From the NCBI GenBank assembly GCA_036404755.1, contig DASWYX010000373.1:1-41193 (forward strand): a stretch of DNA of 41,193 bases, in the 5' to 3' direction. Shown here piece by piece: positions 9,644 through 29,584 of the stretch; position 1 is the first letter of the stretch; every line of letters starts with the position of its first letter. The position numbers were made by a program, and so were the translations under genes. This DNA comes from Pseudoduganella sp. Its GTDB lineage: Bacteria; Pseudomonadota; Gammaproteobacteria; Burkholderiales; Burkholderiaceae_D. Under the pieces are notes generated by a model, which searched no databases, was not told the origin of the DNA, and worked only from the letters and a program-made list of their open reading frames with translations.

Positions 9644-10705
9644 TTACACCACGGCAGCTTCCAGCAGGGTAACGGTCTGGCGTTCGGTGTCCAGGCGGGC
9701 GCGGATGCCCATGGGAATGGTGAACTGGTTGCGGATATGGCCGAAGGAATAGCCGGTCACGGCCGGGATGTGCAGCGGCTTCAGGTGCTGGTCCGTGGTT
9801 TCGTCCAGCGTCAGCGAGATATCGGAATCCTGCGGGCCGCAATTCTCGCAAATGCCCAGCATGATGGCCGATGCATTCTGCAAGCCCAGCGACAGATGCA
9901 GCTGCATCATCATGCGGTCGATGCGGTAGGGCGCCTCGTTCACTTCCTCCAGGAACAGGATGCCCTTGCGGAAGTCGCCGGCATAGGGCGTGCCGGCCAG
10001 CGCGCTGACCAGGCACATATTGCCGCCGATCAGCGGGCCTTCGGCCACGCCCGGCACCACGGTACGCAGTGCGTAATGCGGCTCTTCCTCAGCCTTGCGG
10101 CTGTTTTCGAGCGCCATGGGAATCGTGTATTCCTCTTCAGGCCGCATCAGCACGTTGAGCAGATGCGTGACCGAGTAATCGGACATGGTGGAGGAAGCCA
10201 CCGGTCCGTGGAAGGTCACCAGCCCGGCGTGCTTGTGGATCGCCAGGTGCAGGGCCGTGATGTCGGAATATCCGATCAGGATCTTGGGGTTGTTGCGGAT
10301 CAGCTTGTAATCCAGGTGTTCCAGCAGCTGGATGCAGCCGGAACCGCCGCGGATTGCCCAGATCGCCTTGACCTCGCGGTCGGCGAACATGGCGTGCAGG
10401 TCGTCCAAGCGCTGCTGGGGCAAGCCGCCGTAGTTGCCGTAGACGGCTTCCAGGTTCTTGCCCAGCTTGACCTTGAAACCCAGGGATTCAATGTTCTGGA
10501 TGGCCTTCGCGATGGAGGGCGCACTCGTATGGCCGCCGGGGGCGACTAGGCCAATCGTGTCGCCCGGCAGCAGGCGGGGCGGTTTGATCAGGCCGCTGTG
10601 ATTCATGGGAGGCTTTCGTTTCCTGGAACGCGCCGCTGCCGCCGGAAGGGCGGCAGCTGCGAGGGCGGCCGCGGCAAGGCGGCCGAATGTCCGTCTGGAG
10701 ATCAG
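9644..10705 (-). CDS. ldcA: LD-carboxypeptidase (peptidase S66, LdcA family), probably Tat-exported; first ATG at 10606, proposed start CTG 10705
   Basis: AIRGGSG, IGYSDIT (Ser), LFLEEVNE (Glu), FGHI (His); the in-frame upstream extension reads LISRRTFGRLAAAALAAAALPAAAARSRKRKPP. Confidence 0.88.
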   Translation of the reverse strand: MISRRTFGRLAAAALAAAALPAAAARSRKRKPPMNHSGLIKPPRLLPGDTIGLVAPGGHTSAPSIAKAIQNIESLGFKVKLGKNLEAVYGNYGGLPQQRLDDLHAMFADREVKAIWAIRGGSGCIQLLEHLDYKLIRNNPKILIGYSDITALHLAIHKHAGLVTFHGPVASSTMSDYSVTHLLNVLMRPEEEYTIPMALENSRKAEEEPHYALRTVVPGVAEGPLIGGNMCLVSALAGTPYAGDFRKGILFLEEVNEAPYRIDRMMMQLHLSLGLQNASAIMLGICENCGPQDSDISLTLDETTDQHLKPLHIPAVTGYSFGHIRNQFTIPMGIRARLDTERQTVTLLEAAVV

Positions 10706-13455: not shown

Positions 13456-13588
13456 AGGGTCTCTCCCAATTAAATTTGAACCGTCTAAAGCGGCCAGTGG
13501 TGGGCAATGTCAGGGGCATTGCTCTTCTTGGCTTTTGCAGGTTATCCCGGTGGAAAACTTGCCTGCCAATGAAAATTACTGCGCAGAC

Positions 13589-13605
13589 TATAACTTTATG
13601 TAATG
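13589..13605. promoter_or_regulatory. Putative LysR box (TATAACTTTATGTAATG) upstream of TonB receptor
   Basis: T-N11-A dyad; on the minus strand followed after 13 nt by TTTTCATT and by -10-like TAACCT (13544-13539). Confidence 0.7.
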
Positions 13606-13619
13606 AAAAGGCGCGTATT

Positions 13620-15410
13620 CTAGCGGACAGCGCCCTTGGTAGCAGCGCCGCGTGCTTGTTGATCAATATCAACGTACCGCCAATTAGTTAATTCGACCGG
13701 GTGGCGCTTGTAGTTTTTTAGCCACGGTTGCTGGATATCGGCGGAGATCGGGTGAATTACCAGCACCCAGGGGTTGTAGGCGTGGATCAGCTGGGACAAC
13801 TCTTTGTAGATCTTCTGCCGCTCGGGACCGTCGCTCAGCTTGCGGGACTGCTCATAACGCTGGTTATATTCGGGCAGATTGAAGCGCGCGTAATTGGCGC
13901 GTCCGCTGTTGGGACCGTACAACAGCTGGAAGAAGTTGTCGCCGTCCGGGAAGTCGGCAATCCAGTTGGTTTCGAACATCTGCACCTTGCCCAGGCGCGA
14001 AGCCTTGATGATTTCCGTCTTCTTGTCGGACTTGAAGGTCACGTTCAGGCCGATGGCGTTCAGGTTCTTGCGCCACAGCTCGTCGCGCAGGCGGCCCACC
14101 ATGGTCGGCTCGGTGTGCATGGTCAGCAGCAGCGGACTGCCGTCCGGCATGGTGCGGAAACCATCCTTGCCGACGCGGTAGCCGAAGCGGTCCAGCAGAG
14201 CCCGGGCCAGCGCCGGGTCGTACTGCACGGGGCTGCGGTAAGCGGGGTCGTACCCCAGCACATTGGGCGGCAGCGGCGACTGGGCAGGGATGGCCAGGCC
14301 CTTCTTCAGCAGGGCGATGTCCTCCGGGCTGTTATAACCCAGCGCTATGGCCCGGCGCAGGGCGACCTTTTCCTTGCTGTAGCCGCCGATGACCGGGTCA
14401 TCCATGTTCATCCACATGTAGTAGGTCTGCAGCACGGGGAAGGGCGTAAACACCATGCCGCGCTGCGCCAGCTCCGGCTTCAGCACGGGCTTGCTTGACG
14501 ACGGATCGAGCACCATGTCGCGCATCGATTCCGGCACCTGCTCGATGTAGTCGAATTCGCCGTTCAGGAAGCCCAGCACGCGCGACTGGTATTCCTCCAT
14601 GATCTTGACCTCGACCTTGTCCACCTGGGGCAGCTTGTGGCCCTGGTAGCTTTGCGGGTAGCCCGGGTTGGCGGCCAGCGTGATCTTGTCGCTGCGCTTC
14701 CATTCCTCGACGCTGAAGGGGCCGCTGCCAACGGGATGGTTGCCCATCTGCAGGCCGTAGGCCTCCGCCACTTCGCGCGCGACCGCGCCGGTAGCGGGCA
14801 GGGCCATGTAGAACAGGAAGCTCGGATCCGGGGCCTTCAGCTTGATGCGCAAGGTGTATTTGTCGACGGCTTGCAGGCCCTCGATGTTCCTGTCGTAGCT
14901 GAACTTGCCGTTTTTGTACGCTTCGTCGCCGGCCAGCTTGTCTTCGAACATGAAGAGCCAGGGCGATTTCAGGCCGGGGTCGTACAGGCGCTTGATGCTG
15001 TAGACGTAGTCGGCGGCGGTGACTTCGCGTTTCTGGCCCTTGAAGGCCGGATCGTCGCTGAAGAACATGCCGGGCCGGAGCTGGAAAGTCCAGACGGTGC
15101 TGCTGGCGTCGCTGGTGGGCATGGCGCGCGCCGAACTGGGGGCCAGCTTCACGGGACGCGCATCGTAATCGTAGCGCAGCAGGGGGTCGAACAGGTTTTC
15201 CAGCAGGCTCAGGCTGGCCAGGTCGGAAGCCACGGCCGGGTCCAGGCCGGTTTCGCCGGTGGAGAGGAAGGCGTGCAGGACTTTGGACGGGCCGGCGGCT
15301 TGCGCGGGCGCCGGTGTAGCGCCTGCCCCGGCGGCGGCAGCGCCTCCGGCAGCGCTGGCGAAACAGGCGGCGATGGCGAGGGCGGCGATCGGATTCCAGA
15401 GTCTCTTCAT
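13620..15410 (-). CDS. Family 5 (OppA/DppA-type) extracellular solute-binding protein, no cognate ABC permease in window
   Basis: LDPAVASD, VWTFQLRPG.FFSDD, VTAADYVYS, PVGSGPF, ALRRAIALG, WIADFPD motifs; N-terminal signal with possible lipobox IAAC. Confidence 0.9.
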   Translation of the reverse strand: MKRLWNPIAALAIAACFASAAGGAAAAGAGATPAPAQAAGPSKVLHAFLSTGETGLDPAVASDLASLSLLENLFDPLLRYDYDARPVKLAPSSARAMPTSDASSTVWTFQLRPGMFFSDDPAFKGQKREVTAADYVYSIKRLYDPGLKSPWLFMFEDKLAGDEAYKNGKFSYDRNIEGLQAVDKYTLRIKLKAPDPSFLFYMALPATGAVAREVAEAYGLQMGNHPVGSGPFSVEEWKRSDKITLAANPGYPQSYQGHKLPQVDKVEVKIMEEYQSRVLGFLNGEFDYIEQVPESMRDMVLDPSSSKPVLKPELAQRGMVFTPFPVLQTYYMWMNMDDPVIGGYSKEKVALRRAIALGYNSPEDIALLKKGLAIPAQSPLPPNVLGYDPAYRSPVQYDPALARALLDRFGYRVGKDGFRTMPDGSPLLLTMHTEPTMVGRLRDELWRKNLNAIGLNVTFKSDKKTEIIKASRLGKVQMFETNWIADFPDGDNFFQLLYGPNSGRANYARFNLPEYNQRYEQSRKLSDGPERQKIYKELSQLIHAYNPWVLVIHPISADIQQPWLKNYKRHPVELTNWRYVDIDQQARGAATKGAVR

Positions 15411-15485
15411 TGCTTGTCCTTATGGTTGCGGCGCAGAGCATACGGCAGCGCCGCACGCCGCGCCAGTGAAATCCATCCCGCCGCT

Positions 15486-15502
15486 TATAACTTTTTTACA
15501 TG
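15486..15502. promoter_or_regulatory. Putative bidirectional LysR box (TATAACTTTTTTACATG) between SBP and spmAB
   Basis: TTTCA motif 13 nt away on both sides, with -10-like TATGCT (15442-15437, minus) and CAAAAT (15546-15551, plus). Confidence 0.7.
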
Positions 15503-15582
15503 CCTGACCTGCATAGTTTCATCAGCGCGACCTATACTTTGCCTTCAAAATTGCTCCAAACCATATTCGCTGCAGGGAATTC

Positions 15583-16821
15583 ATGTCACTTAATTACATC
15601 TGGTCCGGCTTCTTTCTGGTAGGTTTCGCGGCGGCGCTGGCGCAGTGGCTGTTCCTGGGCGATACGGAGATTTTCAAAAAGATCATCGACGGCACTTTCG
15701 AGACGGCCAAGGTCGGCGTAATGGACATCGCCCTGCCGCTGGCCGGCGTGATGACGCTGTGGCTGGGCATCATGAACATCGGTGAGAAAGCGGGCGCCGT
15801 CGGCTGGCTGGCGAAAATCATCTCGCCCTTCTTCTCGCGCATCTTCCCCGAAGTGCCGAAGGACCATCCGGCCACCGGCCACATGGTGATGAACTTCTCC
15901 GCCAACCTGCTGGGCCTGGACAATGCCGCCACGCCCTTCGGCCTGAAGGCGATGGAGAGCCTGCAAACGCTGAACCCCAACAAGGATGAAGCGAGCAATG
16001 CCCAGATCATGTTCCTGGTGCTGCACACGTCCGGCCTGACGCTGATTCCGCTGGCCATCATGGCGCAGCGCTCCATCCTGGGTGCGGCCGACCCGTCCGA
16101 CATCTTCATTCCCTGCCTGATCGCGACCTATGTGGCGACGGTGGCGGGCATCATTGCCGTATCGATCCGCCAGCGCATCAACCTGTTCGACAGCGTTGTC
16201 CTCAGCTGGCTGGGCGGCATGACGGCAGCCATCGGCGGCATGGTTTACTACTTCACCAATTACCTGACACGCACCGAGATCGAGGTGGTATCCAAGGTGG
16301 TGAGCAACCTGATCCTGATCATGATCATCGCCGTCTTCATCATCGGCGCGCTGCGCAAGAAAGTGAATGTGTACGACGCCTTCATCGAGGGCGCGAAAGG
16401 CGGCATCCAGACCTCGCTGACCGTGATTCCCTACCTGGTCGGCATGCTGGTCGCCATCAGCGTGATCCGCAACGCCGGCGTGTTCACGCTGATCACGGAC
16501 GCTTTCGCCTGGCTTTTCCACGCCATGGGCCTGCGTACCGACTTCGTGCCGTCGCTGCCGGTGGCGCTGATGAAGCCTTTCAGCGGCAGCGGCTCGCGTG
16601 CGATGATGATCGATGCGATGAAAACCTATGGTCCGGATTCCTTCGTGGGGCGCCTGGCCTGTATCTTCCAGGGTTCGGCCGACACCACCTTCTACATCGT
16701 CGCGCTGTACTTTGGCTCGGTGGGCATCCGCAAGACGCGCTATGCGATTTCCTGCGGCATGATCGCCGACTTCGCCGGCATCGTGGCCGCGATTGGCGTG
16801 GCTTATCTGTTCTTCGGTTAA
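15583..16821 (+). CDS. Fused SpmA/SpmB (nucleoside-recognition Gate domain) membrane protein
   Basis: ANLLGLDNAATPFGLKAM (SpmA) and VYDAFIEGAKGG, KPFSGSG, GSADTTFYIVALYFGSVGIRKTRYA (SpmB) in one polypeptide. Confidence 0.88.
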   Translation: MSLNYIWSGFFLVGFAAALAQWLFLGDTEIFKKIIDGTFETAKVGVMDIALPLAGVMTLWLGIMNIGEKAGAVGWLAKIISPFFSRIFPEVPKDHPATGHMVMNFSANLLGLDNAATPFGLKAMESLQTLNPNKDEASNAQIMFLVLHTSGLTLIPLAIMAQRSILGAADPSDIFIPCLIATYVATVAGIIAVSIRQRINLFDSVVLSWLGGMTAAIGGMVYYFTNYLTRTEIEVVSKVVSNLILIMIIAVFIIGALRKKVNVYDAFIEGAKGGIQTSLTVIPYLVGMLVAISVIRNAGVFTLITDAFAWLFHAMGLRTDFVPSLPVALMKPFSGSGSRAMMIDAMKTYGPDSFVGRLACIFQGSADTTFYIVALYFGSVGIRKTRYAISCGMIADFAGIVAAIGVAYLFFG

Positions 16822-16834: not shown

Positions 16835-18331
16835 ATGCGCCGTCTTCTTCTCGCTTCCCTGATCGCTGCCTTCGGCGCCGCTCACGCCGCGCTGCCCGAG
16901 CCGGTGGCCCGCCTAGCCGCCGCAAACGGCATTCCTGAGGATGCTATCGGCGCGCTCGTGCTGCGCGGCGACCAGGCCCTGGTTTCCAATATGCCGGACC
17001 AGCCCTTCGCACCCGCTTCGACCATGAAGCTGGTGACCACGATCGTCGGCCTCGAAGAACTGGGCCCCGTGTTCAAGGGGCGCACTGAGTTGCGCAGCAG
17101 CGGCGAGATCGTCAACGGCGTGCTGCACGGCGACCTGGTGCTGCGCGGCGGCGCGGACGGCGACTTCACGATCGACGCCTTCACGCACATGCTGGAAAAG
17201 CTGCGCAGCCAGGGCATCCGCCGCATCGACGGCAACCTGGTGCTGGACCGCACGCTGTGGCAGCCTTCGCGGCTGGATGTCGGCGTGCCGCCCTTCGATG
17301 AATCGCCCGAGGCTTACTACAACGTGATTCCGGATGCGCTGTGGCTGAACATGAATATGCTGACGCTCGATATCGCATCCGATGCGCGCTCGGTGCGCGT
17401 ATCGCTGCTGCCGGAGATGGACAAGGTGTCGGTGAAGTCCGAACTGGTGCTGACCGATGGCGAATGCGCGAAGTGGGAGGACGGCTGGAAAGTGCCCGAG
17501 TACGTGCGCAACGGCTCCCGCCTTTCGATTGTGCTGAAGGGGACCTATCCACGCAACTGCGCCAGGACGAATGTGGTCAATGTGCTCGACCGGCATGACT
17601 TCACCGAACGCTTCTTCCGCGCGACGTGGGCGCGGCTGGGCGGGAAGTTCAGCGGCTCCGTGCTGGAAGCCGAAGCGCCGGTGAGCGCCGTGCGCCTGCT
17701 GGCCGAGCACACCTCGCGCAGCCTGCCCGAGATTATCCGCGACACCAACAAGCCGTCCGACAACGGCCTGGCGCGCACCATCTTCCTCAGCCTGGGCAGC
17801 CTGCAGGCTGATCCCAAGCTGGGCAGCCGTCCGCTCGACCTGGCTGCGCCCGCGCCCGCAGCGGCGGCTTCCACGCCTGGCGGTGGCGACATTGCCGCGC
17901 CGGCGTCCACGCTGGCCCGCTCAGAACTGGTGGTGCGCAACTGGCTGCGCAAGCAAGGCATCGACGATTCCGGCCTGGTGCTGGAAAACGGCTCCGGCCT
18001 CTCGCGCATCGAGCGCATCCGCCCGGTGCAGATGGCCGGCCTGCTGCGCGCCGCGCAACGCTCCCTGTGGGCGCCCGAATTCATCGCCAGCCTGCCGATC
18101 GCCGGCGTGGACGGCACGATGAAGCGCCGCCTGAAGGAAAGCATCGCCGCCCAGCGCGCCCGCGTAAAAACCGGCACCCTGCGCGACGTGGTCGCCATCG
18201 CCGGCTACGTCCCCGACGCCGACGGCCAGCCCTGCATCGTCGTCGCCATGGTCAACCACGAGCGCGCCGGCAACGGCATCGGCCGCTCCATCGTCGACGC
18301 CCTCATCGACTGGACCGCCCAGCAACACTAA
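16835..18331 (+). CDS. dacB: D-alanyl-D-alanine carboxypeptidase/endopeptidase (PBP4, peptidase S13)
   Basis: PASTMK (SxxK), SDN (SxN), KTGTL, NGSGLSR; signal peptide from ATG 16835 with SD AAGGAG. Confidence 0.92.
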   Translation: MRRLLLASLIAAFGAAHAALPEPVARLAAANGIPEDAIGALVLRGDQALVSNMPDQPFAPASTMKLVTTIVGLEELGPVFKGRTELRSSGEIVNGVLHGDLVLRGGADGDFTIDAFTHMLEKLRSQGIRRIDGNLVLDRTLWQPSRLDVGVPPFDESPEAYYNVIPDALWLNMNMLTLDIASDARSVRVSLLPEMDKVSVKSELVLTDGECAKWEDGWKVPEYVRNGSRLSIVLKGTYPRNCARTNVVNVLDRHDFTERFFRATWARLGGKFSGSVLEAEAPVSAVRLLAEHTSRSLPEIIRDTNKPSDNGLARTIFLSLGSLQADPKLGSRPLDLAAPAPAAAASTPGGGDIAAPASTLARSELVVRNWLRKQGIDDSGLVLENGSGLSRIERIRPVQMAGLLRAAQRSLWAPEFIASLPIAGVDGTMKRRLKESIAAQRARVKTGTLRDVVAIAGYVPDADGQPCIVVAMVNHERAGNGIGRSIVDALIDWTAQQH

Positions 18332-20093: not shown

Positions 20094-20927
20094 TTAGGGC
20101 TTGGCTGCAGCCCCCTCAGCCGGAACCGCGGCCGGTGCCGGTTTCGGGGTGGTCAGCACATCCAGGATGGCGGCAGACTCCGCATCCGGCACGCCATCCC
20201 ACTTGCTCTGGCGGTATTTGGACTGGAAAGTCACCAGCACGTTGCGGGTCGCTTCGTCCATCACGCCGGTCTGCGGCGTGGCGTAGCCGTGGGCGGCCAG
20301 CTTGTTCTGGAACCAGGTGATGTCCGGCAGCTGGGCTTCGTAGATGGCGCGCTTTTCGGCGACGGCGTTGGCGTCCGGCCAGGTGATCAGGCCGGCGTCA
20401 GCCAGTTGCTTCCAGGGGAAGAGGGGACCCGGGTCCTGCTTGCGCTGCGGCGCGATGTCGGCGTGGCCGAGGATATTTTCCGGCAGCACGCCGTGGCGTT
20501 CCTTGATCTGCTTGAGCAGCGGGATCAGCTGGTCGATCTGGGCCTGCTTGAACGGGTACCAGACGCGGCCTTCCGGCGTGTCCTTGAAGCCCGGATTGAC
20601 GATTTCGATGCCGACCGAGCTGTGGTTCAGCTGCGTATAGTTTTTCCAGCTGCTGGTGCCGGCGTGCCAGGCGGCGCGGTTCTCATCGACCAGCGCATAG
20701 AACTTCGGCTTTTCCTCGTCGGTCAGCAGGTAGTGAGCGCTCACCTCGTTCTGCGTCAGCAGCTTGATCGACAGCGGCAGGTCGGACACGGTGTAGTGGA
20801 TCACGATGAAACGCACGCGGCTGCTCTGCCCCTTGGACGGGCCCAGCGAATGGTCGATGGTCGGTGGCTGGGTGGCGCAGCCGGCCAGCACGGAGATCAG
20901 GGAAGCAAGCAGCAGTTTTTTGATCAT
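20094..20927 (-). CDS. amiD: N-acetylmuramoyl-L-alanine amidase, AmiD-like lipoprotein (Amidase_2 plus PG-binding domain)
   Basis: Lipobox LAGC; IVIHYT, VSAHYL, RAWHAG, SVGIEIVN, GHADIAPQRKQDPGPLFPW. Confidence 0.9.
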   Translation of the reverse strand: MIKKLLLASLISVLAGCATQPPTIDHSLGPSKGQSSRVRFIVIHYTVSDLPLSIKLLTQNEVSAHYLLTDEEKPKFYALVDENRAAWHAGTSSWKNYTQLNHSSVGIEIVNPGFKDTPEGRVWYPFKQAQIDQLIPLLKQIKERHGVLPENILGHADIAPQRKQDPGPLFPWKQLADAGLITWPDANAVAEKRAIYEAQLPDITWFQNKLAAHGYATPQTGVMDEATRNVLVTFQSKYRQSKWDGVPDAESAAILDVLTTPKPAPAAVPAEGAAAKP

Positions 20928-20945: not shown

Positions 20946-21863
20946 TCAGTTTCGTGGACGAGCCGCCATGCGGGCGGCCGCGTATTGGGGATGGGCAGTG
21001 CGCCGGGACAGCTCCAGCCCGGGCGGCAGTTCGGCGCGCATGGCTTCGAAGATCAGCGGATGCAGTTCGGCGGCGCGCCCCGCCAGCACAATCGGTTTTG
21101 TCCCGAAGCGGGATACCAGCGCCAGCGCCAGCCGCGCCAGTTCGCGCCCGGCCTGCAGCAGGATGTGGCGCGCGGCCGGATCGGCGCCCGCGCTCATCGC
21201 GACCGCCAGCGCCAGCTTGCCGATTTCGCCGCGTTCGCGGGTGTACATGAAGGACCGCGAATAGGCCCAGTCGCTGCCGCCGACATGGTCGAACACGGCA
21301 TGGGCCAGCGGCGATTCCTGCCAGGAGCCCGGCTGCTCATCTTCGTTGCGCCAGATGCGGCGCATCGCTTCGCGCGCGATCCAGAAGCCGCCGCCGGCAT
21401 CGTCCAGCATCACGCCGCGGCCGCCGGCGCGGTGGAATTCGCCCGCGCCGTCGATGTAGGCGGCGATGGAGCCGGTGCCGGCATAAACCAGGTAGCCTTC
21501 GCCGGGCTCGAAGGCGTCGAGATAGGCGATTTCGATATCGTTGCAGATGGTGATGGCGTCCAGGCGCACATGCAGGAGGTCGGACAGCCAGCCCAGCAGC
21601 ACATTGCCGTCGCCGCCGAAGCCCGTCAGCCCCGCGCAAATGCGCAGCGGCCTGCCGGATTCCAGCACGTCCTTGGCCAGTTCGGCAAAGGTGGCGTGCA
21701 CTTGTTCGCGGCCGGCGGGCTTGGCCATCATCAGGGCGGAAAGTCCGGCGACGGTCCCTTCAGCGACGATTTTGCCGGCCGGGTCGGACAGCGCCCAGCG
21801 TGTTTGCGTGCCGCCGGCGTCGATGCCCAGGCCAAGCGGAAGGTCGGATTCGGATGTGCCCAT
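20946..21863 (-). CDS. BadF/BadG/BcrA/BcrD-family amino-sugar kinase (GlcNAc/MurNAc kinase, MurK-like)
   Basis: LGIDAGGTQT, CNDIEIA, YAGTGS, RAGGRG..LDDAGGGFWI; start ATG 21863. Confidence 0.85.
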   Translation of the reverse strand: MGTSESDLPLGLGIDAGGTQTRWALSDPAGKIVAEGTVAGLSALMMAKPAGREQVHATFAELAKDVLESGRPLRICAGLTGFGGDGNVLLGWLSDLLHVRLDAITICNDIEIAYLDAFEPGEGYLVYAGTGSIAAYIDGAGEFHRAGGRGVMLDDAGGGFWIAREAMRRIWRNEDEQPGSWQESPLAHAVFDHVGGSDWAYSRSFMYTRERGEIGKLALAVAMSAGADPAARHILLQAGRELARLALALVSRFGTKPIVLAGRAAELHPLIFEAMRAELPPGLELSRRTAHPQYAAARMAARPRN

Positions 21864-21872: not shown

Positions 21873-21938
21873 AGTGTAAGACCAATTGCTGTCCAGTTCA
21901 CATGAAAGCTTGCTGGGCACTCATTCCTAAAAGTTATA
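21873..21938 (-). promoter_or_regulatory. Promoter of kinase-amiD unit: LysR box (21922-21938), CTTTCATG, tandem TGG repeats, -10 TACACT
   Basis: Same elements at the same spacing as the murQ upstream region (25802-25867). Confidence 0.7.
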
Positions 21939-23595
21939 AGGTTGCGGTAACCCGCGGGCTCTCATTCCCCAGGCGATCGACTGCCGTCACCACCACCGAG
22001 CGCGCCGGCACGCCGGCATCGTCGGTCAGCACCACTTCGTTGCGCGTGGCGGGGGCCACGGTGAAGCGCCACTCGTCGCCGTAACGGGCCCAGATCGCGA
22101 ACTGCGTCGCCTTCGGCACCGCGCCCAGCGACACGGCCAGACCGCTGCCATTGCGCTTGACCGCCACGGCCGGCGCGGACGGCGCATCGCTGCCCAGCCA
22201 CGGCGTGACCGGCACCAGCGCGGCGCTCTGGTAGCTGATGTTCTTCAACTGGTCGGTGATGCCCTTGCGGTTCTGCATCAGCGCCGCGATGCTGAAGTGG
22301 ACGTGGCCATTCACCACGCCGCGGCTGCGCATCACTTCGATCTGCTGCACGATTTCCTCCGGCGTGAAGGACTTGTCCGTGTTGTCGATGCGGCTGGTGT
22401 ACATGCCCGGCCATACATGGCGGCCGCGCTTGTTCTGGGCCAGCCAATAATCGAGCAGCACCGGGAAGGCTTGCGGCTGCTGGGCGATCGGCCAGTACAG
22501 CTGCGGCGTGAAATAATCGAGCCAGCCGTTCTGCAGCCACAATTCGGCGTCCGCATACAGCTTGTCGTACTGGCTGAAGCCCTGGATGCCGGGCGGGCGG
22601 CGGTCCGGACGGCCGATGCCGAAGGGGCTGATGCCGAAGCGCACCCAGGATTTTTCCTTGCGGATGCCGTTGTAGATCGCTTCGATCAGCTGGTTCACGT
22701 TCTGGCGGCGCCACGAGGCGCGGTCCAGCGTGCCGCCGCCGGCCACATAGCGCTGCCACGCCGGCTGGTCCGGGAAATCCAGTTCCGACTTGCCGCCATT
22801 GGACGGCGCATCCAGCGCGGCCGCTTCGCCGCCGTTGGCGCTGGGCGCTTCGATCGGATAGGGGTAGAAGTAGTCGTCGAGGTGGACGCCGTCGACATCG
22901 TAGCGGCGCACCACGTCCAGGATCACGTCCAGCGTCTGCTGCGCTGCGGCTTCCTCGCCCGGGTCCATCCACTGGAATTTACCGTACTGCTTGACCACCT
23001 GCGGCCTGGTGTTGGCGATGTGGTCGCGCGCATTCGGCGTTTTTGCCGCGGAGTGGCGCGCGCGATAGGGGTTGAACCAGGCGTGCAGTTCCATGCCGCG
23101 CGCATGCGCCTGGGCGATCCAGAATTGCAGCGGGTCCCAGGCGGGAGAAGGCTCGCGGCCTTGCGCGCCGGTCAGGTATTCGGACCACGGCTCCAGCTTC
23201 GACGGATAGATCGCATCGGCGCTCGGGCGCACCTGCAGCACGATGGCGTTCAGGTTCAGCGATTTCGCGCGGTCGAGGATCGCGAGCGCCTCGGCCTGCT
23301 GCTTCGCGGGCGGCAGGTTGCTGCGGCTGGGCCAGTCAATATTGGCGACGGTGGACACCCAGGCGGCGCGGAACTCGCGCGGCGCCGGCGGCGGCGTGTC
23401 GCCGGTGAAGTGAGGCTGGGCCGGCGTGCCGGGCTGAGTTCCGGGCGTTGTGCCAGGCGTGCCGCCGGCTGCGCCGGGAGCGGCCGCGCCTTTATCGCGC
23501 GGCATCGGATTGGAAGAACACGCAGCCAGGACGGCGGCAATCACACTGGCCGCACCGGCGGACAACGTCAGCCGCTTTTTTGCACTAAATCTCAA
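21934..23595 (-). CDS. GHL10/DUF187 family glycoside hydrolase lipoprotein (YddW/DigH-like)
   Basis: EFRAAWVSTVANIDWP, QVRPSADAIY, ELHAWFNPYR, YDVDGVHLDDYFYPYP, PQLYW; lipobox LAAC; start reassigned to TTG 23595 behind SD GGAGG (23605-23601). Confidence 0.88.
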   Translation of the reverse strand: MRFSAKKRLTLSAGAASVIAAVLAACSSNPMPRDKGAAAPGAAGGTPGTTPGTQPGTPAQPHFTGDTPPPAPREFRAAWVSTVANIDWPSRSNLPPAKQQAEALAILDRAKSLNLNAIVLQVRPSADAIYPSKLEPWSEYLTGAQGREPSPAWDPLQFWIAQAHARGMELHAWFNPYRARHSAAKTPNARDHIANTRPQVVKQYGKFQWMDPGEEAAAQQTLDVILDVVRRYDVDGVHLDDYFYPYPIEAPSANGGEAAALDAPSNGGKSELDFPDQPAWQRYVAGGGTLDRASWRRQNVNQLIEAIYNGIRKEKSWVRFGISPFGIGRPDRRPPGIQGFSQYDKLYADAELWLQNGWLDYFTPQLYWPIAQQPQAFPVLLDYWLAQNKRGRHVWPGMYTSRIDNTDKSFTPEEIVQQIEVMRSRGVVNGHVHFSIAALMQNRKGITDQLKNISYQSAALVPVTPWLGSDAPSAPAVAVKRNGSGLAVSLGAVPKATQFAIWARYGDEWRFTVAPATRNEVVLTDDAGVPARSVVVTAVDRLGNESPRVTATL

Positions 23596-23630: not shown

Positions 23631-24896
23631 CTACTTGCGTCCGAACTCCGGATCGATCTTCACCATCGCCGTCACGATAAAGGCGGGAATGGTGGCCAGG
23701 CAGGCCCAGATGAAGAAGTTCGGATAGCCCAGATGCTCCTGGATCCAGCCGCTCGCCATTTGCGGAATCATCATGCCAAGCGCCATGAATCCGGTGCAGA
23801 TTGCGTAATGCGCGGTCTTGTGCTCGCCCTCCGCGACCATGATCATGAACATCAGGTAGGAAGTGAAACCGAAGCCGTAGCCGAATTGCTCCAGGCCGAT
23901 GGCAGCGGAGATCACGTAGAAGTTTTCCGGCATCGCATGCGACAGCCACACGAAAACCAGGTCCGGCACGTGGGTGATGAAGGCCATCGGCCACAGGCAG
24001 CGTTTCAGGCCGAAACGCGAAATCACATAGCCGCCCAGCAGGCCGCCGGCCAGCAGCGCCAGCACGCCCACGGTGCCGTAGGCGATGCCCAGGTCGGACG
24101 TGTCCAGGCCCAGCCCACCGGAGGCGCGGCCGTCAACCAGGAAGGGCACGACCATCTTCAGCAACTGCGATTCGCCCAGGCGGAAGGTCAGCAGGAATAA
24201 CAGGATGACGCCGATCCGCTCCTTGCGGAAGAAGGCGGCGAAGGTATTGAAGAATTCCTGGAACAGGCTGGCCGTATGCGTCGCCTTGCGATCCGCTGCC
24301 GGCTTGGGCAGCATGAACAGGTGGTACAGGGCCAGCAGGCCGAACACGCCGCCCATGATGCCGTATACGATGCCCCACGCCAGGTGCGCATTGCCGGAGT
24401 GCTTGATGATCTGGCCCGCGATATACGTCAGGCCGCCGTTGCAGGCCACGTTGGCGATGCGGTAAGCAGTGCTGCGTACGCCGACGTAGGCCGCCTGGTC
24501 CTTCTGGCGCAGGGCCAGCATGTAGAAGCCGTCCGCCGCGATATCGTGGGTGGCCGAACTGAAGGCCATCAGCCACATCGCGGCAAGACTGAGCTGGACG
24601 AAGTGCGATAGCGGCGTGGTGAATGCGACCGCGGCCAGCGAGACTGCGATCACCATCTGCAGCAGGACCACCCAGCCGCGCTTGGTGCCGAACATTTCCA
24701 CGATCGGCGACCAGACCGGCTTGATGATCCAGGGGAGGTAAAGCCAGGAAGTGTAGAACGCGATGTCGGTGTTCGACATCCCGGTATTTTTGTACATCGT
24801 CGTGGACAAGGCCATCACGGCGAAGTAGGGGATGCCTTGGCCAAAATAGAGGGATGGCACCCACCACCAGGGGCTGCGCTGCTGCACTTGTTCCAT
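23631..24896 (-). CDS. AmpG-like MFS permease
   Basis: PSLYFGQGIPY, LPWIIKPVWSP, SATHDIAADGFY, AHYAICTG; about 12 TM segments; start ATG 24896 with SD AAGGA. Confidence 0.85.
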   Translation of the reverse strand: MEQVQQRSPWWWVPSLYFGQGIPYFAVMALSTTMYKNTGMSNTDIAFYTSWLYLPWIIKPVWSPIVEMFGTKRGWVVLLQMVIAVSLAAVAFTTPLSHFVQLSLAAMWLMAFSSATHDIAADGFYMLALRQKDQAAYVGVRSTAYRIANVACNGGLTYIAGQIIKHSGNAHLAWGIVYGIMGGVFGLLALYHLFMLPKPAADRKATHTASLFQEFFNTFAAFFRKERIGVILLFLLTFRLGESQLLKMVVPFLVDGRASGGLGLDTSDLGIAYGTVGVLALLAGGLLGGYVISRFGLKRCLWPMAFITHVPDLVFVWLSHAMPENFYVISAAIGLEQFGYGFGFTSYLMFMIMVAEGEHKTAHYAICTGFMALGMMIPQMASGWIQEHLGYPNFFIWACLATIPAFIVTAMVKIDPEFGRK

Positions 24897-24910: not shown

Positions 24911-25792
24911 TTATGCGGAAAGCGCTCCGCGTACGCTTCCTTTCGCTTGTTCCAGCAGCGTCTCCGCCTGCTGCACACTTGTCTTTTTCAGGAGTGCGAC
25001 CACCGCCACCTTCACGTGGAAGCCACACTGTTCCAGCGCGCTGCGGGCCGACGCTTCATCGGCGCCGGTCGCGTGCATGGTCAGGCGCACGGTGCGCGCG
25101 AACAGCTTCGCATTGGTCGGCTTCAAGTCTACCATCAGATTTCCGTACACTTTGTTCAGGCGGACCATGATGGCGCTGGAGATCGTGTTCAGCACGATCT
25201 TCTGCGAGGTGCCGGCCTTCAGGCGCGTGCTGCCGGAGATGACTTCGGGGCCGGTGTCCAGCGTAATGCCGACTTCCGCTTCGTTCGCAACCGGCGCATC
25301 GGTGTTGTTGGCGATGCCGATGGTCAGCGCGCCGAGGGCGCGCGCCGCATGCAGGGCGCCCAGCACATACGGCGTGCCGCCGGATGCCGCCAGCAGCAGC
25401 ACGACGTCATTCTTTGTCGGGGTCAGACCCTGCAGGTCTTTCGCGCCCTGTTCGCGGTCGTCTTCCGCGCCTTCGACGGCCTGGAACATGGCGGATTCGC
25501 CCCCGGCCAGCAGGGCCAGGGCGCGCTCGTGCGGCCAGGAGAAGGTGGGGTAGAGTTCGACGCTGTCCAGCACGCCCAGGCGGCCGGAAGTGCCCGCGCC
25601 CACGTAGAGCAGGCGTCCACCCGCCTCGATGCGTGGTACTGCTGCGGTAATAGCTTTTGCGATGGCAGGCGCGGCCTTGCGCCCCGCTTCGACGGCGTTC
25701 AACTGATCGTCCACGAACGCCGACACCAGCTGTTCCGTGGGATATTGGTCCAGCCCGGTGTGCAGGCTGCTAGGGGTTTCGGTTTTTAGCAT
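24911..25792 (-). CDS. murQ: N-acetylmuramic acid 6-phosphate etherase
   Basis: YVGAGTSGRLGVLD, ELYPTF, AVEGAED, AASGGTPYV, TGPEVISGSTRLKAGT, GNLMVD. Confidence 0.95.
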   Translation of the reverse strand: MLKTETPSSLHTGLDQYPTEQLVSAFVDDQLNAVEAGRKAAPAIAKAITAAVPRIEAGGRLLYVGAGTSGRLGVLDSVELYPTFSWPHERALALLAGGESAMFQAVEGAEDDREQGAKDLQGLTPTKNDVVLLLAASGGTPYVLGALHAARALGALTIGIANNTDAPVANEAEVGITLDTGPEVISGSTRLKAGTSQKIVLNTISSAIMVRLNKVYGNLMVDLKPTNAKLFARTVRLTMHATGADEASARSALEQCGFHVKVAVVALLKKTSVQQAETLLEQAKGSVRGALSA

Positions 25793-25795
25793 GAT

Positions 25796-25867
25796 AGTAC
25801 CAGTGTAATACCAAATCCCGGCCCGGGCCCATGAAAGGAAGATACATGGGCATTACATTTGGTTATG
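25796..25867 (-). promoter_or_regulatory. murQ promoter: LysR box (25851-25867), CTTTCATG, tandem TGGTATT/TGGTACT repeats overlapping -10 TACACT
   Basis: Minus strand reads CATAACCAAATGTAATG..CTTTCATG..TTGGTATTACACTGGTACTATC-ATG. Confidence 0.72.
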
Positions 25868-26603
25868 CCGCGCGCCGCATCTCCGCCACGAAATCGTAGT
25901 GGTCGCTGCGGCAATAAGAGTGGGTCAGCTCGACCGCCTCGCCCGTTTCGAGATAGGCGATGCGGGTGATGAAGAGCACGGCCTGCCCTTCCGGCACGTC
26001 CAGCTTTTCGGCCAGTTCGGCGCCCGCGTTCATGGCGCGGATGTGCTGCAGGGCGCGCACGGGCGCCTTGCCCACGGATTCCAGGTATTGATACAGCGAA
26101 TCGCCGATGTCTTCCGGTTTCGCCACCGCGCTTTGCGGCAGCACGCTCACTTCGTAAGCCATCACGACATCGTCCGCCAGGCGCAGGCGCTCCAGGCGCG
26201 CCACGCGGGAATTGGGCGACAGGCCCAGGCTCATTTGTTCGTCCGCGCTGGCGGTCACGATGGCGCGCTTCAGCCAGCGCGAGCCTGGCTTGTAGCCGCG
26301 CTGCTGCAGCTGTTCGGAAAAGCTGGAGAGGTTGGACAGCGGCTGCTCGATGCGCGGCGCAATGTAATTGCCCGAGCCGCGACGGCGCACGACGAGTCCC
26401 TGTTCCACCAGCTGGTCGATGGCCTTGCGCGCCGTCACGCGCGACACATTCAACTGCTCGGACAAGGTGCGTTCCGATGGCAGCGCCTGATCGACCTGGT
26501 ATCGCCCGTTGCGCACATCGTCGCTCAGCTTGCGGGCAATCTGCATATACAGCGGGGAATTGTCTTGTTGATCCGGTTTGAATTCTGCGCCGGGCTGGTT
26601 CAT
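25863..26603 (-). CDS. GntR family regulator, HutC/UTRA subfamily (NagQ-like)
   Basis: PLYMQI, LPSERTL..VSRVTARKAI..GLVVRRRGSG HTH; C-terminal UTRA domain (LSSFSEQ, SLYQYL). Confidence 0.9.
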   Translation of the reverse strand: MNQPGAEFKPDQQDNSPLYMQIARKLSDDVRNGRYQVDQALPSERTLSEQLNVSRVTARKAIDQLVEQGLVVRRRGSGNYIAPRIEQPLSNLSSFSEQLQQRGYKPGSRWLKRAIVTASADEQMSLGLSPNSRVARLERLRLADDVVMAYEVSVLPQSAVAKPEDIGDSLYQYLESVGKAPVRALQHIRAMNAGAELAEKLDVPEGQAVLFITRIAYLETGEAVELTHSYCRSDHYDFVAEMRRAA

Positions 26604-26667
26604 TGCGTTTCTCCTGTTAGGCAGTAGTTTAATAGCGATGAGCTTTTCGCGGCGGGAATTTGTTACA

Positions 26668-26684
26668 TATGCCGTGCGGTTATG
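26668..26684. promoter_or_regulatory. Putative LysR box (TATGCCGTGCGGTTATG) upstream of serine hydrolase
   Basis: Followed after 13 nt by TTTTCATT (26698) and by -10-like TATGCT (26729-26734). Confidence 0.65.
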
Positions 26685-26763
26685 TCCGCATAATCAGTTT
26701 TCATTAGCCCCTGTACGCACGCCGGTTATATGCTTTTCGCATAACAAAATCTGGGGAGTCTGA

Positions 26764-28104
26764 ATGTCGATGCGCGCGTTGATCGGAGCGATCTTGCTGG
26801 GTGGTGTCAGCCATGTCATGGCGGCGGGACCGGCCACTGCGGTGCTGGACCGTGAGCTGGCGGCCATCGTCAACGATGCACAGCGTCCGCTGTCCGGACT
26901 TTCGGTGCTGGCGATTCGCGACGGCAAGGTCGCTTACCAGCAGCAGTTCGGCCTGCGCCGCATCGACACCGCCGGCAACGGCGTTACCGCGCCGGTCACG
27001 CCCACGACCATGTTCCGCATCGCTTCCATTTCCAAGATGATGACCACCTTCGGCGCCATGAAGCTGGTCGAGGAAGGCAAGCTGCGCCTGGACGAGGACA
27101 TCAGCACGGTGATGGGCTTCCCGGTCCGCAATCCGGCGTATCCGGACAAGCCAATCACGCTGCGTCACCTGCTGAGCCACACGTCCACCTTGCGGGACGA
27201 CGCCGGCTACTTCTGGGGCACCGACACGACGCTGCGCGAAGTGCTGCTGCCCGGCGGGAAGCGCTACGGCAAGGGCGAGATGTGGGCGCAGCAGGGCGCG
27301 CCAGGCGAGTATTTCACCTACTGCAACCTGAACTGGGGCGTGATTGGCACGCTGATGGAGCGCGCGTCCGGCGAACGCTTCGACCGCCTGATGAAGCGCT
27401 TGCTGCTGCAGCCGATGGGACTGCACGGCGGCTATAACCCGGCCGAGTTCACGGCGCAGGAAGTGTCCGATACGGCGACCTTGTACCGCCGCCGCACGCG
27501 CGATACCGAAGTCTGGGACCCGAAAGGGCCGTGGATCGCGCAAGTGGACGATTTCGGCGTGTCCGCGCCGCTGCAGCCGCCCGGCATCGAGCGTTATGAG
27601 ATCGGCAGCAATGCCACGCTGTTCAGCCCGACTGGCGGCATGCGCATTTCGGCTGGTGACATGGGCAAGATCATGCTCATGCTGATCAATAACGGGCGCT
27701 TTGAGGGCAAGCAGATCCTCCGGCCCGAGTCGCTGCAGGCGATGTTTGCCGAGCAGTGGCATTACAACGGACGCAATGGCGACACCTTGAAGGGCCTTTA
27801 TCACAGCTGGGGCCTGGGCACGCAACGTTTCGACGATGAGCCGGGCAAGGGCAACCGCCTCGTGTCGGGCGGCGGCTTTTCCGCGGTCGGACACCTGGGC
27901 GAGGCTTACGGACTCATTTCCACCTTTGTGGTCGATCTGCAAAGGAAAAACGGCCTCGTGTCCCTGATCGGCGGCTTCGCCAGCGATCCCGATGCCTACC
28001 CGGGACAGTTCTCCGCCCACACCCGCACTGAGGAATTGATTCTCGACGCCCTGTACCGCCGGGCCGTGTTGGGCGATAGCGGCGGAGCCACGGCGGGTCA
28101 ATGA
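26764..28104 (+). CDS. Exported serine hydrolase, beta-lactamase/PBP-like family
   Basis: FRIASISK (SxxK), ITLRHLLSHTS, YCN (YxN), GHLG; N-terminal signal peptide. Confidence 0.88.
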   Translation: MSMRALIGAILLGGVSHVMAAGPATAVLDRELAAIVNDAQRPLSGLSVLAIRDGKVAYQQQFGLRRIDTAGNGVTAPVTPTTMFRIASISKMMTTFGAMKLVEEGKLRLDEDISTVMGFPVRNPAYPDKPITLRHLLSHTSTLRDDAGYFWGTDTTLREVLLPGGKRYGKGEMWAQQGAPGEYFTYCNLNWGVIGTLMERASGERFDRLMKRLLLQPMGLHGGYNPAEFTAQEVSDTATLYRRRTRDTEVWDPKGPWIAQVDDFGVSAPLQPPGIERYEIGSNATLFSPTGGMRISAGDMGKIMLMLINNGRFEGKQILRPESLQAMFAEQWHYNGRNGDTLKGLYHSWGLGTQRFDDEPGKGNRLVSGGGFSAVGHLGEAYGLISTFVVDLQRKNGLVSLIGGFASDPDAYPGQFSAHTRTEELILDALYRRAVLGDSGGATAGQ

Positions 28105-28206
28105 CCCGCCCTACAGCCCCTGCGGGGCCACACGGGAATGCATTCACCGCGGCCGACGACGCGTTCCCGGGCCCGACAGGGCTGTAGGGCGGATCATTGA
28201 TCCGCC
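28092..28206. repeat. Inverted pair of GTAG-type REP palindromes (REPIN/BIME-like)
   Basis: 28092-28114 is the reverse complement of GTAGGGCGGGTCATTGACCCGCC; 28184-28206 is GTAGGGCGGATCATTGATCCGCC; the spacer is partly self-complementary. Confidence 0.85.
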
Positions 28207-28213
28207 GTGCTGG

Positions 28214-28230
28214 CATCACCCGAGGTTATG
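28214..28230. promoter_or_regulatory. Putative LysR box (CATCACCCGAGGTTATG) upstream of D-amino acid dehydrogenase
   Basis: Followed after 13 nt by CTTTAATT (28244) and by -10-like TACCCT (28275-28280). Confidence 0.65.
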
Positions 28231-28327
28231 GCCCCTGAAAGAACTTTAATTGGCGACAACGGTCCGCTGACCGTTACCCTCTCATCATGAATAAACCCGG
28301 CCTGAGAAAAGGCCCTAGCGAGGCGTA

Positions 28328-29584
28328 ATGCAGCAAGAAGCACAGCAAGTAGTCGTGATCGGTGGCGGTGTCGTGGGCCTGGCTTCGGCCTGGTGGCTAC
28401 TGGAGGCCGGCTATCGCGTCACGCTGCTGGAAAAAGCGCCGACGGTCGGCAGCGCGGCGAGCGCGCGCAATGGCGGCCAGCTGAGCTACCGCTACGTCTC
28501 GCCGCTGGCCGACGCCGGCGTGCCGCTGAAAGCGCTGCAATGGATGTTCCAGCAGGACGGCCCGCTGCGCTTCCGTCCCGAAGCCGACATGCGCCAGTGG
28601 CGCTGGCTGGCGCAATTCCTCGCCAACTGCAATTCCGCCGACAACGCCCGCACCACGGCCAAGCTGCTCGAACTCGGTGAGCTGAGCCGGCAGTCCATGG
28701 CGCAGCTGGAACTGCAACTGCCGCTGTCCGAATTCTCCTGGCGCGACGCGGGCAAGCTCGTGGTCTACCGTTCGAAATCCGCTTTCGACAAAGCCGTCGC
28801 CAAGCCGGGTTCCGAAGACAAGCGCATCGTCCTCAACGGCGCCGAAACCGCCGAACTGGAACCGGCGCTGGCCGAACTGGCGCCTTCGCTCGCCGGCGGC
28901 ATCTTCAACAGCGGCGAAGCGGTCGCCGACTGCCACGCCTTCTGCCTGGCGCTGGAAAAACGCCTGATGGCGCACCCTCGCTTCGAAGGCGTGGTGCACG
29001 CCGAAGCGCACACCATCTTCGCCGAAAACGGACGCGTGTCCGCCATCCAGACCAACGCCGGCTGGCTCGCTGCCGATCACTTCGTGCTGGCCGCCGGCAT
29101 CCAGAGCCGCAATCTCGCCGCCACCGCAGGCATCTACCTGCCGATGTACCCGCTGAAAGGCTACAGCCTGACCGCGCCGATCGACGCCGAACACCGCGCG
29201 CCCGAGATCAGCGTGACCGACTTCGAACGCAAGACGCTGTACGCGCGCATCGGCGGCAACCTGCGCATCGCCGCCATGGTCGACATGGTCGGCGAAGACA
29301 CGTCCATCGACCGCCGCCGCATTGCCGGCCTGACCAGGCTGGCCCGCGCCACCATGCCGCACGCGGCCGACTACGACAGGGCCGAACCCTGGGCCGGCCT
29401 GCGTCCCGCCACGCCGAATTCCGCCCCCATCATCGGCGCTACCAAATATCCCAACCTCTGGCTCAACGTCGGCCACGGCCCGCTCGGCTTCACCTTCGCC
29501 TGCGGCACCGCCAACCTCCTCGCCACGCTCATGCGCGGCAAGCAGACGCCGTTCACCCTCGACTGCCTCGCGCTCGCCGCTTAA
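28328..29584 (+). CDS. FAD-dependent D-amino acid dehydrogenase (DadA family, DguA-like)
   Basis: IGGGVVG FAD motif, NGGQLSYRYVSPLAD, YPLKGYSLT, WAGLRPATP, NVGHGPLGFTFACG. Confidence 0.9.
   Translation: MQQEAQQVVVIGGGVVGLASAWWLLEAGYRVTLLEKAPTVGSAASARNGGQLSYRYVSPLADAGVPLKALQWMFQQDGPLRFRPEADMRQWRWLAQFLANCNSADNARTTAKLLELGELSRQSMAQLELQLPLSEFSWRDAGKLVVYRSKSAFDKAVAKPGSEDKRIVLNGAETAELEPALAELAPSLAGGIFNSGEAVADCHAFCLALEKRLMAHPRFEGVVHAEAHTIFAENGRVSAIQTNAGWLAADHFVLAAGIQSRNLAATAGIYLPMYPLKGYSLTAPIDAEHRAPEISVTDFERKTLYARIGGNLRIAAMVDMVGEDTSIDRRRIAGLTRLARATMPHAADYDRAEPWAGLRPATPNSAPIIGATKYPNLWLNVGHGPLGFTFACGTANLLATLMRGKQTPFTLDCLALAA

What the first reader, a model, noticed from the sequence alone, without database searches (positions are those of the whole stretch)
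9644..29584. Candidate peptidoglycan utilization locus: TonB-dependent uptake coupled to near-complete murein breakdown
Seen: 15 contiguous genes, most from families acting on peptidoglycan or its parts. Known family chemistry: S13 DacB cuts DD cross-links and terminal D-Ala; S66 LdcA removes the fourth D-Ala; Amidase_2 releases stem peptides; E. coli DigH (GHL10) cuts peptide-free glycan; AmpG-type MFS imports sugars; MurQ converts MurNAc-6P to GlcNAc-6P; M15D splits D-Ala-D-Ala; DadA-family enzymes oxidise D-amino acids. Inference: recycling one's own wall needs no outer-membrane receptor. The TonB receptor, exported hydrolases and catabolic end steps therefore suggest feeding on the walls of other or dead bacteria, like a PUL/CUT locus. 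I know of no description of this gene set as a unit, but cannot search.
Basis: partly seen in the sequence, partly recalled or inferred. Interest (0 to 1): 0.9.

Follow-up and report, generated by a model that had tools for sequence, protein, structure and literature searches.

The report
Cell-wall scavenging regulon with TonB receptor
Fifteen adjacent genes in a Pseudoduganella-like bacterium, conserved together across its family and sharing one promoter motif, likely pull bacterial cell-wall fragments through a TonB-dependent receptor, cut them up in the periplasm and burn or reuse the pieces, which would be an uncharacterised route both for eating cell-wall debris and for recycling the cell's own wall.

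Summary
They form one unit. The receptor's orthologue occurs in 82 of 300 family genomes; 79 of these have MurQ, and all 59 same-contig pairs lie within 32 kb. The set stays clustered but reshuffled in other Burkholderiales families. New here: a 39-bp promoter motif precedes seven of the eight transcription units (14 of 15 genes) and tracks the local LysR, not GntR (33 of 35 LysR+ and 0 of 25 LysR- genomes). A separate anabolic route (AnmK, AmgK-like/MurU, Mpl, LdcA) lies elsewhere, so MurQ is likely catabolic. Correction: 55 of 90 MurQ carriers lack both canonical AmpG and AmpD, including complete genomes near the window. The hydrolases carry periplasmic or lipoprotein signals, not secretion signals. 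So the locus likely also recycles the cell's own wall, periplasm first, and is not for foreign walls only. The receptor travels with peptide-side genes, so its cargo is likely stem peptide or muropeptide. SpmAB models as an elevator-type transporter. No growth or expression data exist here. It was not found described in ten literature searches.

The parts
9644..10705 (-). S66 LD-carboxypeptidase with twin-arginine (Tat) signal; CTG start inferred, first ATG at 10606
   Evidence: Pfam; SRRTF signal; regex match in 41 of 51 homologous loci (some genomes counted twice); cytoplasmic LdcA is a separate gene on C529
10702..13455 (-). TonB-dependent outer-membrane receptor; cargo likely muropeptide or stem peptide (inferred)
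   Evidence: Pfam; co-occurrence; peptide-side neighbours in 2 of 3 MurQ-less carriers
13566..13604 (-). LysR-linked promoter motif upstream of the receptor (top genome-wide hit)
13620..15410 (-). Orphan family-5 peptide-binding protein (MppA-like role inferred)
   Evidence: Pfam; PDB sequence hits to peptide-binding proteins; paralogue with Opp-type permease on C167
15463..15525 (.). Two overlapping motif copies at the divergent SBP5 / spmAB-dacB promoters (15463-15501 minus, 15487-15525 plus)
15583..16821 (+). SpmA-SpmB fusion; predicted elevator-type small-solute transporter
   Evidence: Pfam Gate; model pLDDT 92.8; fold matches
16835..18331 (+). S13 DD-carboxy/endopeptidase (PBP4/DacB), Sec signal
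   Evidence: TIGR00666 above cut-off; SxxK/SDN/KTG; sole S13 in 5 of 5 genomes
18489..19100 (-). M15 D-Ala-D-Ala dipeptidase, no signal peptide seen
19097..20002 (-). LysR regulator, likely cognate activator of the shared motif
20094..20927 (-). AmpDh2/AmiD-like amidase lipoprotein
   Evidence: PDB AmpDh2 E 7e-97; lipobox LAGC in sequence
20946..21863 (-). BadF-type sugar kinase; MurK-like role inferred
   Evidence: weak hits to MurNAc/GlcNAc kinases; a separate NagK-like gene lies in the nag cluster
21899..21937 (-). Motif copy upstream of the kinase-amidase-lysR-M15 unit (not in the training set; weak with the held-out matrix)
21934..23595 (-). GHL10 glycan hydrolase lipoprotein; TTG start inferred
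   Evidence: Pfam; Cwp19 E 2e-74; start
23631..24896 (-). AmpG-like MFS permease (below AmpG family cut-off)
24911..25792 (-). MurQ MurNAc-6-phosphate etherase
   Evidence: NCBIfam above cut-offs; motifs
25800..25815 (.). Second conserved site upstream of murQ (GntR operator inferred)
   Evidence: single match in G000
25828..25866 (-). Motif copy upstream of murQ-MFS-GHL10 (not in the training set; weak with the held-out matrix)
25863..26603 (-). GntR-UTRA regulator
26669..26707 (+). Motif copy upstream of the S12 hydrolase
26764..28104 (+). Beta-lactamase-family (S12) serine hydrolase, Sec signal; DD-peptidase role inferred
28215..28253 (+). Motif copy upstream of the D-amino acid dehydrogenase
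28328..29584 (+). D-amino acid dehydrogenase, paralogue of the housekeeping DadA on C156

Best explanation
These 15 conserved, adjacent genes likely form one LysR-controlled system that takes soluble cell-wall fragments in through the TonB receptor, dismantles them in the periplasm and sends sugars and peptides to catabolism or reuse, serving both for outside debris and for the cell's own shed wall. Shown: gene families, clustering, the shared motif and its link to LysR, and the missing ampG/ampD. Inferred from family chemistry: S13 and S12 cut DD bonds, Tat-exported S66 removes the fourth D-Ala, the AmpDh2-like lipoprotein frees the peptide and GHL10 cuts the bare glycan. The MFS would import disaccharide, a GH3 encoded elsewhere would split it, and the kinase and MurQ would make GlcNAc-6P for the nagA/nagB-II cluster. 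SBP5 would deliver peptides to an Opp-type ABC system encoded elsewhere, SpmAB would import D-Ala-type small products, and M15 plus the dehydrogenase would burn D-amino acids. The LysR effector is likely a D-amino acid or stem peptide (guess).
For: Receptor orthologue in 82 of 300 family genomes, 79 with MurQ, 59 of 59 same-contig pairs within 32 kb. All 10 outside-family MurQ loci at 63-70% identity have GHL10 beside them, and 5 of 10 have the receptor. In 7 of 35 murQ loci fetched from the genus a stand-alone dehydrogenase|murQ-(lysR)-receptor-(S66) module with its own murQ ties the receptor directly to MurQ. The top seven genome-wide motif hits are all in the locus; 15 of 16 pattern hits in five near-complete or complete genomes are in the locus, control 0; the motif is present in 33 of 35 LysR+ and 0 of 25 LysR- genomes. 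MurU, Mpl, AnmK, AmgK-like and LdcA lie elsewhere, although beta- and gammaproteobacteria are reported to have either MurQ or AmgK-MurU (PMC5371407 passage). 55 of 90 MurQ carriers lack both canonical AmpG and AmpD, against 20 and 4 of 210 non-carriers (hand tally, AmpG part). Relatives add nagA, nagB-II, AstE/M14-like and enolase-family (MR_MLE) genes to the locus.
Against: No growth, expression or binding data. The receptor's cargo cannot be read from sequence (PDB hits are plug-only). With a matrix trained only on other genera, the murQ and kinase sites score 17.4 and 15.3 bits, inside the 15-23 bit range of shuffled matrices; the spmAB site was not among the 22 top hits printed. One MurQ-less receptor carrier (G147) and the one other-order carrier (G696) show no wall genes nearby. 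At least eight genomes keep the receptor without LysR or the motif. One Massilia isolate did not grow alone on necromass metabolites, and Massilia also rose in the no-necromass control (PMC11843093 passages). Genomes are related, so counts overstate independence; G000 is 80% complete.
Confidence: 0.65

Rival explanations
1. Own-wall housekeeping only: the locus is a periplasm-first recycling route that replaced AmpG/AmpD, and the receptor merely recaptures the cell's own shed fragments; foreign wall is not a meaningful food.
For: AmpG and AmpD not found in 55 of 90 MurQ carriers; S13 is the sole S13; the amidase is AmpDh2-like; no secreted lysozyme in the locus; Xanthomonas NixC was proposed to take up own turnover products (PMC4173781 passage).
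Against: 27 of 79 MurQ+receptor carriers keep canonical AmpG, so the locus is kept where the classical route exists. MurQ and a second D-amino acid dehydrogenase destroy building blocks although MurU and Mpl are present. The receptor-murQ module occurs as a detachable second copy.
Confidence: 0.2
2. A D-amino-acid peptide scavenging regulon: the receptor carries some non-wall peptide, and the sugar genes are a recycling cluster that joined it later.
For: In 2 of 3 MurQ-less carriers the receptor sits only among peptide-side genes. The closest receptor paralogue in G000 (34%) lies beside a cyanophycinase. The sugar arm exists without receptor, LysR or motif in several genomes.
Against: Those peptide-side genes are wall-type enzymes (S13, S66, M15). 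The stand-alone module includes its own murQ with the motif upstream in 5 of 6 scorable cases.
Confidence: 0.1
3. A chance mosaic of unrelated cell-wall and chitin/GlcNAc genes.
For: Eight transcription units on both strands; unrelated genes are inserted inside the locus in many relatives.
Against: Co-clustering persists through reshuffling in other families; the motif is confined to the locus; GlcNAc utilisation has its own cluster elsewhere.
Confidence: 0.03

Closest known systems
CUT/PUL-type loci of Proteobacteria (Xanthomonas campestris GlcNAc system with NixC; Caulobacter nag clusters)
   Same: TonB-dependent receptor with hydrolases, inner-membrane transporter, regulator and catabolic end steps. 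NixC was proposed, on indirect evidence, to import wall fragments (PMC4173781, passages).
   Different: Here the hydrolases are murein peptidases, an amidase and GHL10, and the end steps are MurQ and a D-amino acid dehydrogenase. Caulobacter lacks MurQ (PMC13046382, passages).
Tannerella forsythia peptidoglycan salvage cluster (Tanf_08345-08385: ampG, murT, murK, murQ)
   Same: One cluster for use of exogenous wall fragments with an AmpG homologue, a kinase and MurQ; MurQ co-exists with AmgK/MurU (PMC7670621, passages).
   Different: Tannerella is a MurNAc auxotroph. The passages seen mention no TonB receptor (0 hits for 'TonB'). No MurT in this locus, and it adds a whole peptide arm.
E. coli / Pseudomonas peptidoglycan recycling (AmpG, NagZ, AmpD, LdcA, Mpl, AnmK; MurQ or MupP-AmgK-MurU)
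   Same: Same chemistry and several of the same families (PMC5371407, PMC6448482, passages).
   Different: Canonical AmpG and AmpD were not found here, LD-carboxypeptidase is Tat-exported, the genes are clustered with an outer-membrane receptor, and both MurQ and MurU are present.
Pseudomonas aeruginosa dguRABC D-Glu utilisation locus; E. coli mpaA-ycjG-mppA murein peptide catabolism
   Same: LysR plus D-amino acid dehydrogenase or murein-peptide catabolism. Recalled; only the title of the dguRABC paper was seen.
   Different: Orthology to DguR/DguA was not tested. Those loci have no receptor or glycan arm as recalled.
Bacillus dacB-spmA-spmB
   Same: SpmAB-type gene co-oriented with a DD-carboxypeptidase gene (operon recalled). 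A 2012 review states no activity or structure data for SpmA/SpmB (PMC3533761, passages).
   Different: Fused SpmAB in a non-sporulating Gram-negative, partnered with an S13 enzyme and inside a wall-fragment regulon.

Membership tests
CUT/PUL-type utilisation locus | TonB-dependent receptor clustered with substrate-specific hydrolases | tested here: met
CUT/PUL-type utilisation locus | Inner-membrane transporter and local regulator | tested here: met
   MFS, SpmAB, SBP5, LysR, GntR
CUT/PUL-type utilisation locus | Co-regulation of the genes | tested here: met
   Shared motif tracking LysR; computational only, two sites weak in the held-out test
CUT/PUL-type utilisation locus | Induction by, and growth on, the substrate | not testable with these tools
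   No RNA holder listed; needs experiments
Bacteroidota PUL (strict) | SusC/SusD pair | tested here: not met
   No SusD family hit among the window genes
Canonical AmpG-AmpD recycling pathway | AmpG above family cut-off | tested here: not met
   208 of 350 bits; none over cut-off in G000; no canonical-level hit in G016, G021, G036
Canonical AmpG-AmpD recycling pathway | Cytoplasmic AmpD | tested here: not met
   (G000 only 80% complete; G021 and G036 are single-contig, 100%)
MurQ etherase | NCBIfam score above cut-off with catalytic glutamate motifs | tested here: met
MurK (MurNAc kinase) | Specificity for MurNAc | tested here: inconclusive
   E about 1e-10 to MurNAc/GlcNAc kinase, similar to GlcNAc kinases and hexokinase
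DguR/DguA D-Glu system | Orthology and D-Glu specificity | not tested
   Paper not held; homologue search listed only close relatives
Elevator-type secondary transporters (CNT/DASS/TRAP/AbgT-like) for SpmAB | Fold | tested here: met
   Top 13 VIA hits are all such transporters, Z 7.6-11.8, rmsd 4.7-7.9, 268-335 aligned; next hit Z 6.3; Foldseek E 1e-4. For a helical protein Z under about 13 is only moderate evidence

The most novel reading that the evidence does not exclude
Oxalobacteraceae (Pseudoduganella, Massilia, Telluria, Duganella, Janthinobacterium) carry a dedicated peptidoglycan utilisation regulon. It has a TonB receptor specific for muropeptides or stem peptides, a LysR sensing wall-derived D-amino acids, and SpmAB as a D-Ala-type importer. 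It lets them feed on bacterial wall debris and has repeatedly made the classical AmpG-AmpD recycling route dispensable.
Probability: 0.45. Interest if true: 0.82.

Novelty: new variant of a known kind. Interest (0 to 1): 0.66.

Why it matters
Which bacteria consume bacterial wall debris in soil and water, and how fragments cross an outer membrane, is poorly defined. This locus gives a named receptor, a regulator with a predicted binding site and natural knock-outs in a common, culturable family that has been reported to respond to bacterial necromass. It also suggests that a large group of Betaproteobacteria recycle their wall without AmpG and AmpD, and it gives a testable transport role for SpmA/SpmB, for which a 2012 review found no activity data.

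Tried and rejected
RNA evidence: no RNA holder listed, no evidence either way. Receptor against solved structures: plug-only hits, uninformative. LysR and dehydrogenase against the PDB and a homologue search gave no effector; the dguRABC paper was not held. GntR as the regulator of the shared motif was rejected: motif present in 23 of 40 GntR+ and 10 of 20 GntR- genomes. 'Recycling is handled elsewhere by AmpG/AmpD' was rejected. Wide spread outside Burkholderiales was not found: 2 of 320 class-level genomes had the receptor at E<=1e-150, one in the same order and one elsewhere without wall genes nearby. The MurQ tree is a quick tree only; the careful search did not finish. Literature searches without a description of this set: (open-licence PMC and bioRxiv only; subscription papers and supplements not searched, so a description there cannot be excluded). 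Papers read as passages that gave nothing relevant: PMC11658791, PMC9870897, PMC6987092, 10.1101/072470 (82), PMC13543919. No complex prediction was run. No signal-peptide predictor was available; signals were read by eye and by regex.

Full report
Observation. The window is contig C373 of a 5.36 Mb, 756-contig assembly rated 80% complete. The closest named receptor relative is from Pseudoduganella sp. UC29_106 at 98% identity, and the 41 loci returned are mostly Pseudoduganella, Massilia, Telluria and Duganella. Active-site motifs are intact (expected motifs recalled). Three corrections follow. The MFS is AmpG-like but below the family cut-off (208 of 350 bits). S66 has an upstream twin-arginine signal from a CTG that overlaps the receptor's stop, matched by regex in 41 of 51 homologous loci (some genomes appear twice). 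GHL10 and the amidase carry lipoboxes; the amidase is closest to AmpDh2 and GHL10 to Cwp19. By established knowledge such signals lead to the periplasm or the inner face of the outer membrane, so nothing here is shown to be secreted.

The genes are a unit. MurQ matched in 33 of 36 same-genus genomes, one as fragments. Of 35 murQ loci fetched, 26 carry the run murQ-MFS-GHL10-kinase-amidase, 7 are a separate module of dehydrogenase | murQ-lysR-receptor-S66 (some with S12, some lacking one gene) that has its own murQ, and 2 are unrelated contexts. The module-type MurQs form their own supported clade in a quick tree. In 300 family genomes at least 90% complete, MurQ is in 90 and the receptor orthologue in 82. 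79 have both, 207 neither, 11 MurQ only and 3 receptor only; all 59 same-contig pairs are within 32 kb, and 20 pairs are on different contigs. At order level 22 of 350 genomes had MurQ. The 10 outside-family copies at 63-70% identity all have GHL10 adjacent, in reshuffled orders, and 5 have the receptor in the stretches fetched. Relatives add HGSNAT-like, nagA, nagB-II, AstE/M14-like, enolase-family and Opp genes. At class level only 2 of 320 genomes had the receptor, so this is mainly a Burkholderiales system. G132, marked unpublished, is one of the 300 genomes in these tallies (MurQ+, receptor+, AmpD not found).

Shared regulation. Upstream regions share a 39-bp motif with a LysR-type T-N11-A box. 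A matrix scan of all of G000 put its top seven hits in this locus: upstream of the receptor, S12, spmAB, the kinase, the dehydrogenase, murQ and SBP5 (48 to 24 bits; next best 17.6). Five of these promoter types were in the training set; murQ and the kinase were not. A held-out matrix from other genera still ranked four locus sites first (47.5, 29.3, 29.2, 23.8). It scored murQ 17.4 and the kinase 15.3, inside the 15-23 bit range of shuffled matrices, and spmAB was not among the 22 top hits printed. The pattern gave 16 hits in five near-complete or complete genomes, 15 in the locus, control 0. Over the fetched loci of 60 genomes the motif was present in 33 of 35 with the LysR and 0 of 25 without; GntR did not predict it (23 of 40 against 10 of 20). 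Five LysR-less genomes lack the motif while close sisters in the MurQ tree keep both (G006, G168, G026, G030, G316). LysR was scored only within fetched stretches. A second site upstream of murQ may be the GntR operator.

Catabolism or recycling? G000 has AnmK, MurU with an AmgK-like neighbour, Mpl, a cytoplasmic LdcA and DadA elsewhere. PMC5371407 (passages) reports that beta- and gammaproteobacteria have either MurQ or AmgK-MurU. Having both suggests MurQ is the catabolic branch, as in Tannerella (PMC7670621, passages). Family-wide, the same 35 of 90 MurQ carriers keep both and 55 lack both; among 210 non-carriers AmpG is missing in 20 and AmpD in 4 (hand tally, AmpG part computed). Six genera are mixed, which suggests repeated loss, but kin are not independent. 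The S13 is the only S13 in 5 of 5 genomes. The locus therefore likely handles own-wall turnover as well. A second AmpG-like MFS beside a cytoplasmic GH3 in the nag cluster could share sugar import. 27 of 79 MurQ+receptor genomes keep AmpG, so replacement is not the whole story.

Cargo and SpmAB. In two of the three MurQ-less receptor carriers the receptor lies among S13, Opp and AstE/M14-like genes, with S66, M15, LysR and the dehydrogenase in one of them; in the third it has no wall genes nearby. Its closest paralogue in G000 neighbours a cyanophycinase. I infer a peptide-bearing cargo. SpmAB, folded from a 77-row alignment (pLDDT 92.8), matches elevator-type transporters: the top 13 hits, Z 7.6-11.8, which is moderate evidence for a helical protein. 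It sits with the S13 gene and, in one outside locus, two genes from a D-Ala-D-Ala ligase. A D-Ala-type substrate is a guess.

Comparison. It works like a CUT/PUL locus and meets the genomic criteria; induction and growth are untested. It is not a SusC/SusD PUL and not the canonical AmpG-AmpD pathway. The nearest precedents are Xanthomonas NixC (indirect evidence for wall-fragment uptake; PMC4173781, passages) and the Tannerella salvage cluster. Ten searches of open-licence PMC and bioRxiv found no description of this gene set; subscription papers and supplements were not seen. Massilia rose on bacterial necromass metabolites, but also in the no-necromass control, and an isolate did not grow on them alone (PMC11843093, passages). 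An earlier AI note in this scan reached a similar reading for another genome; it is not independent evidence.

Verdict. Real, conserved and probably one regulon; most likely dual-use wall-fragment scavenging (0.65). New variant of a known kind; interest 0.66.

Noticed in passing
window 18345-18484: Perfect 29-nt inverted repeat arms 82 nt apart between dacB and M15; related copies on 19 contigs of G000, a REP/MITE-like element. Relatives often carry inserted genes at this site.
   Followed up: partly
window 28090-28208: Second inverted-repeat element (40-nt arms, 85% complementary) with matches on 75 contigs of G000.
   Followed up: partly
window 29581-30069 (-): Small membrane protein (weak DUF1440 hit) just outside the finding; in several relatives it lies inside the locus between M15 and S13, so it may belong to it.
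   Followed up: partly
L210 (G000:C14:3485-11777): Paralogous TonB receptor beside a cyanophycinase, an M20 amidohydrolase and a YfcC-like antiporter: a candidate cyanophycin utilisation locus.
   Followed up: partly
L171:6731-17367 and G000 C429/C418: GlcNAc cluster with NagK-like kinase, GntR, nagA, nagB-II, sugar ABC, cytoplasmic GH3 and a second AmpG-like MFS; likely the downstream sink for MurQ's product.
   Followed up: partly
L036:12298-20000: Divergent murQ (45%) with PTS EIIBC, a TonB receptor and PTS EI beside type VI secretion genes: a separate PTS-type MurNAc uptake locus.
   Followed up: no
L120 and L136: Another murQ context: TonB receptor, sodium:solute symporter, GntR, anmK-like gene and murQ, a candidate anhydro-MurNAc uptake locus.
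   Followed up: no
L147:10404-13835: In one outside family the locus holds a second, 1143-aa outer-membrane barrel protein between GHL10 and the kinase, plus a full Opp set.
   Followed up: no
L051, L052, L054, L056: A BlaR1-type M56/transpeptidase gene and a further beta-lactamase-family gene are inserted between the amidase/M15 and dacB.
   Followed up: no
window 12-3982 and 30624-41191: The locus interrupts an ordinary aceK / acyl-CoA / methylcrotonyl-CoA carboxylase / biotin synthesis region; this position is conserved in the genus.
   Followed up: partly
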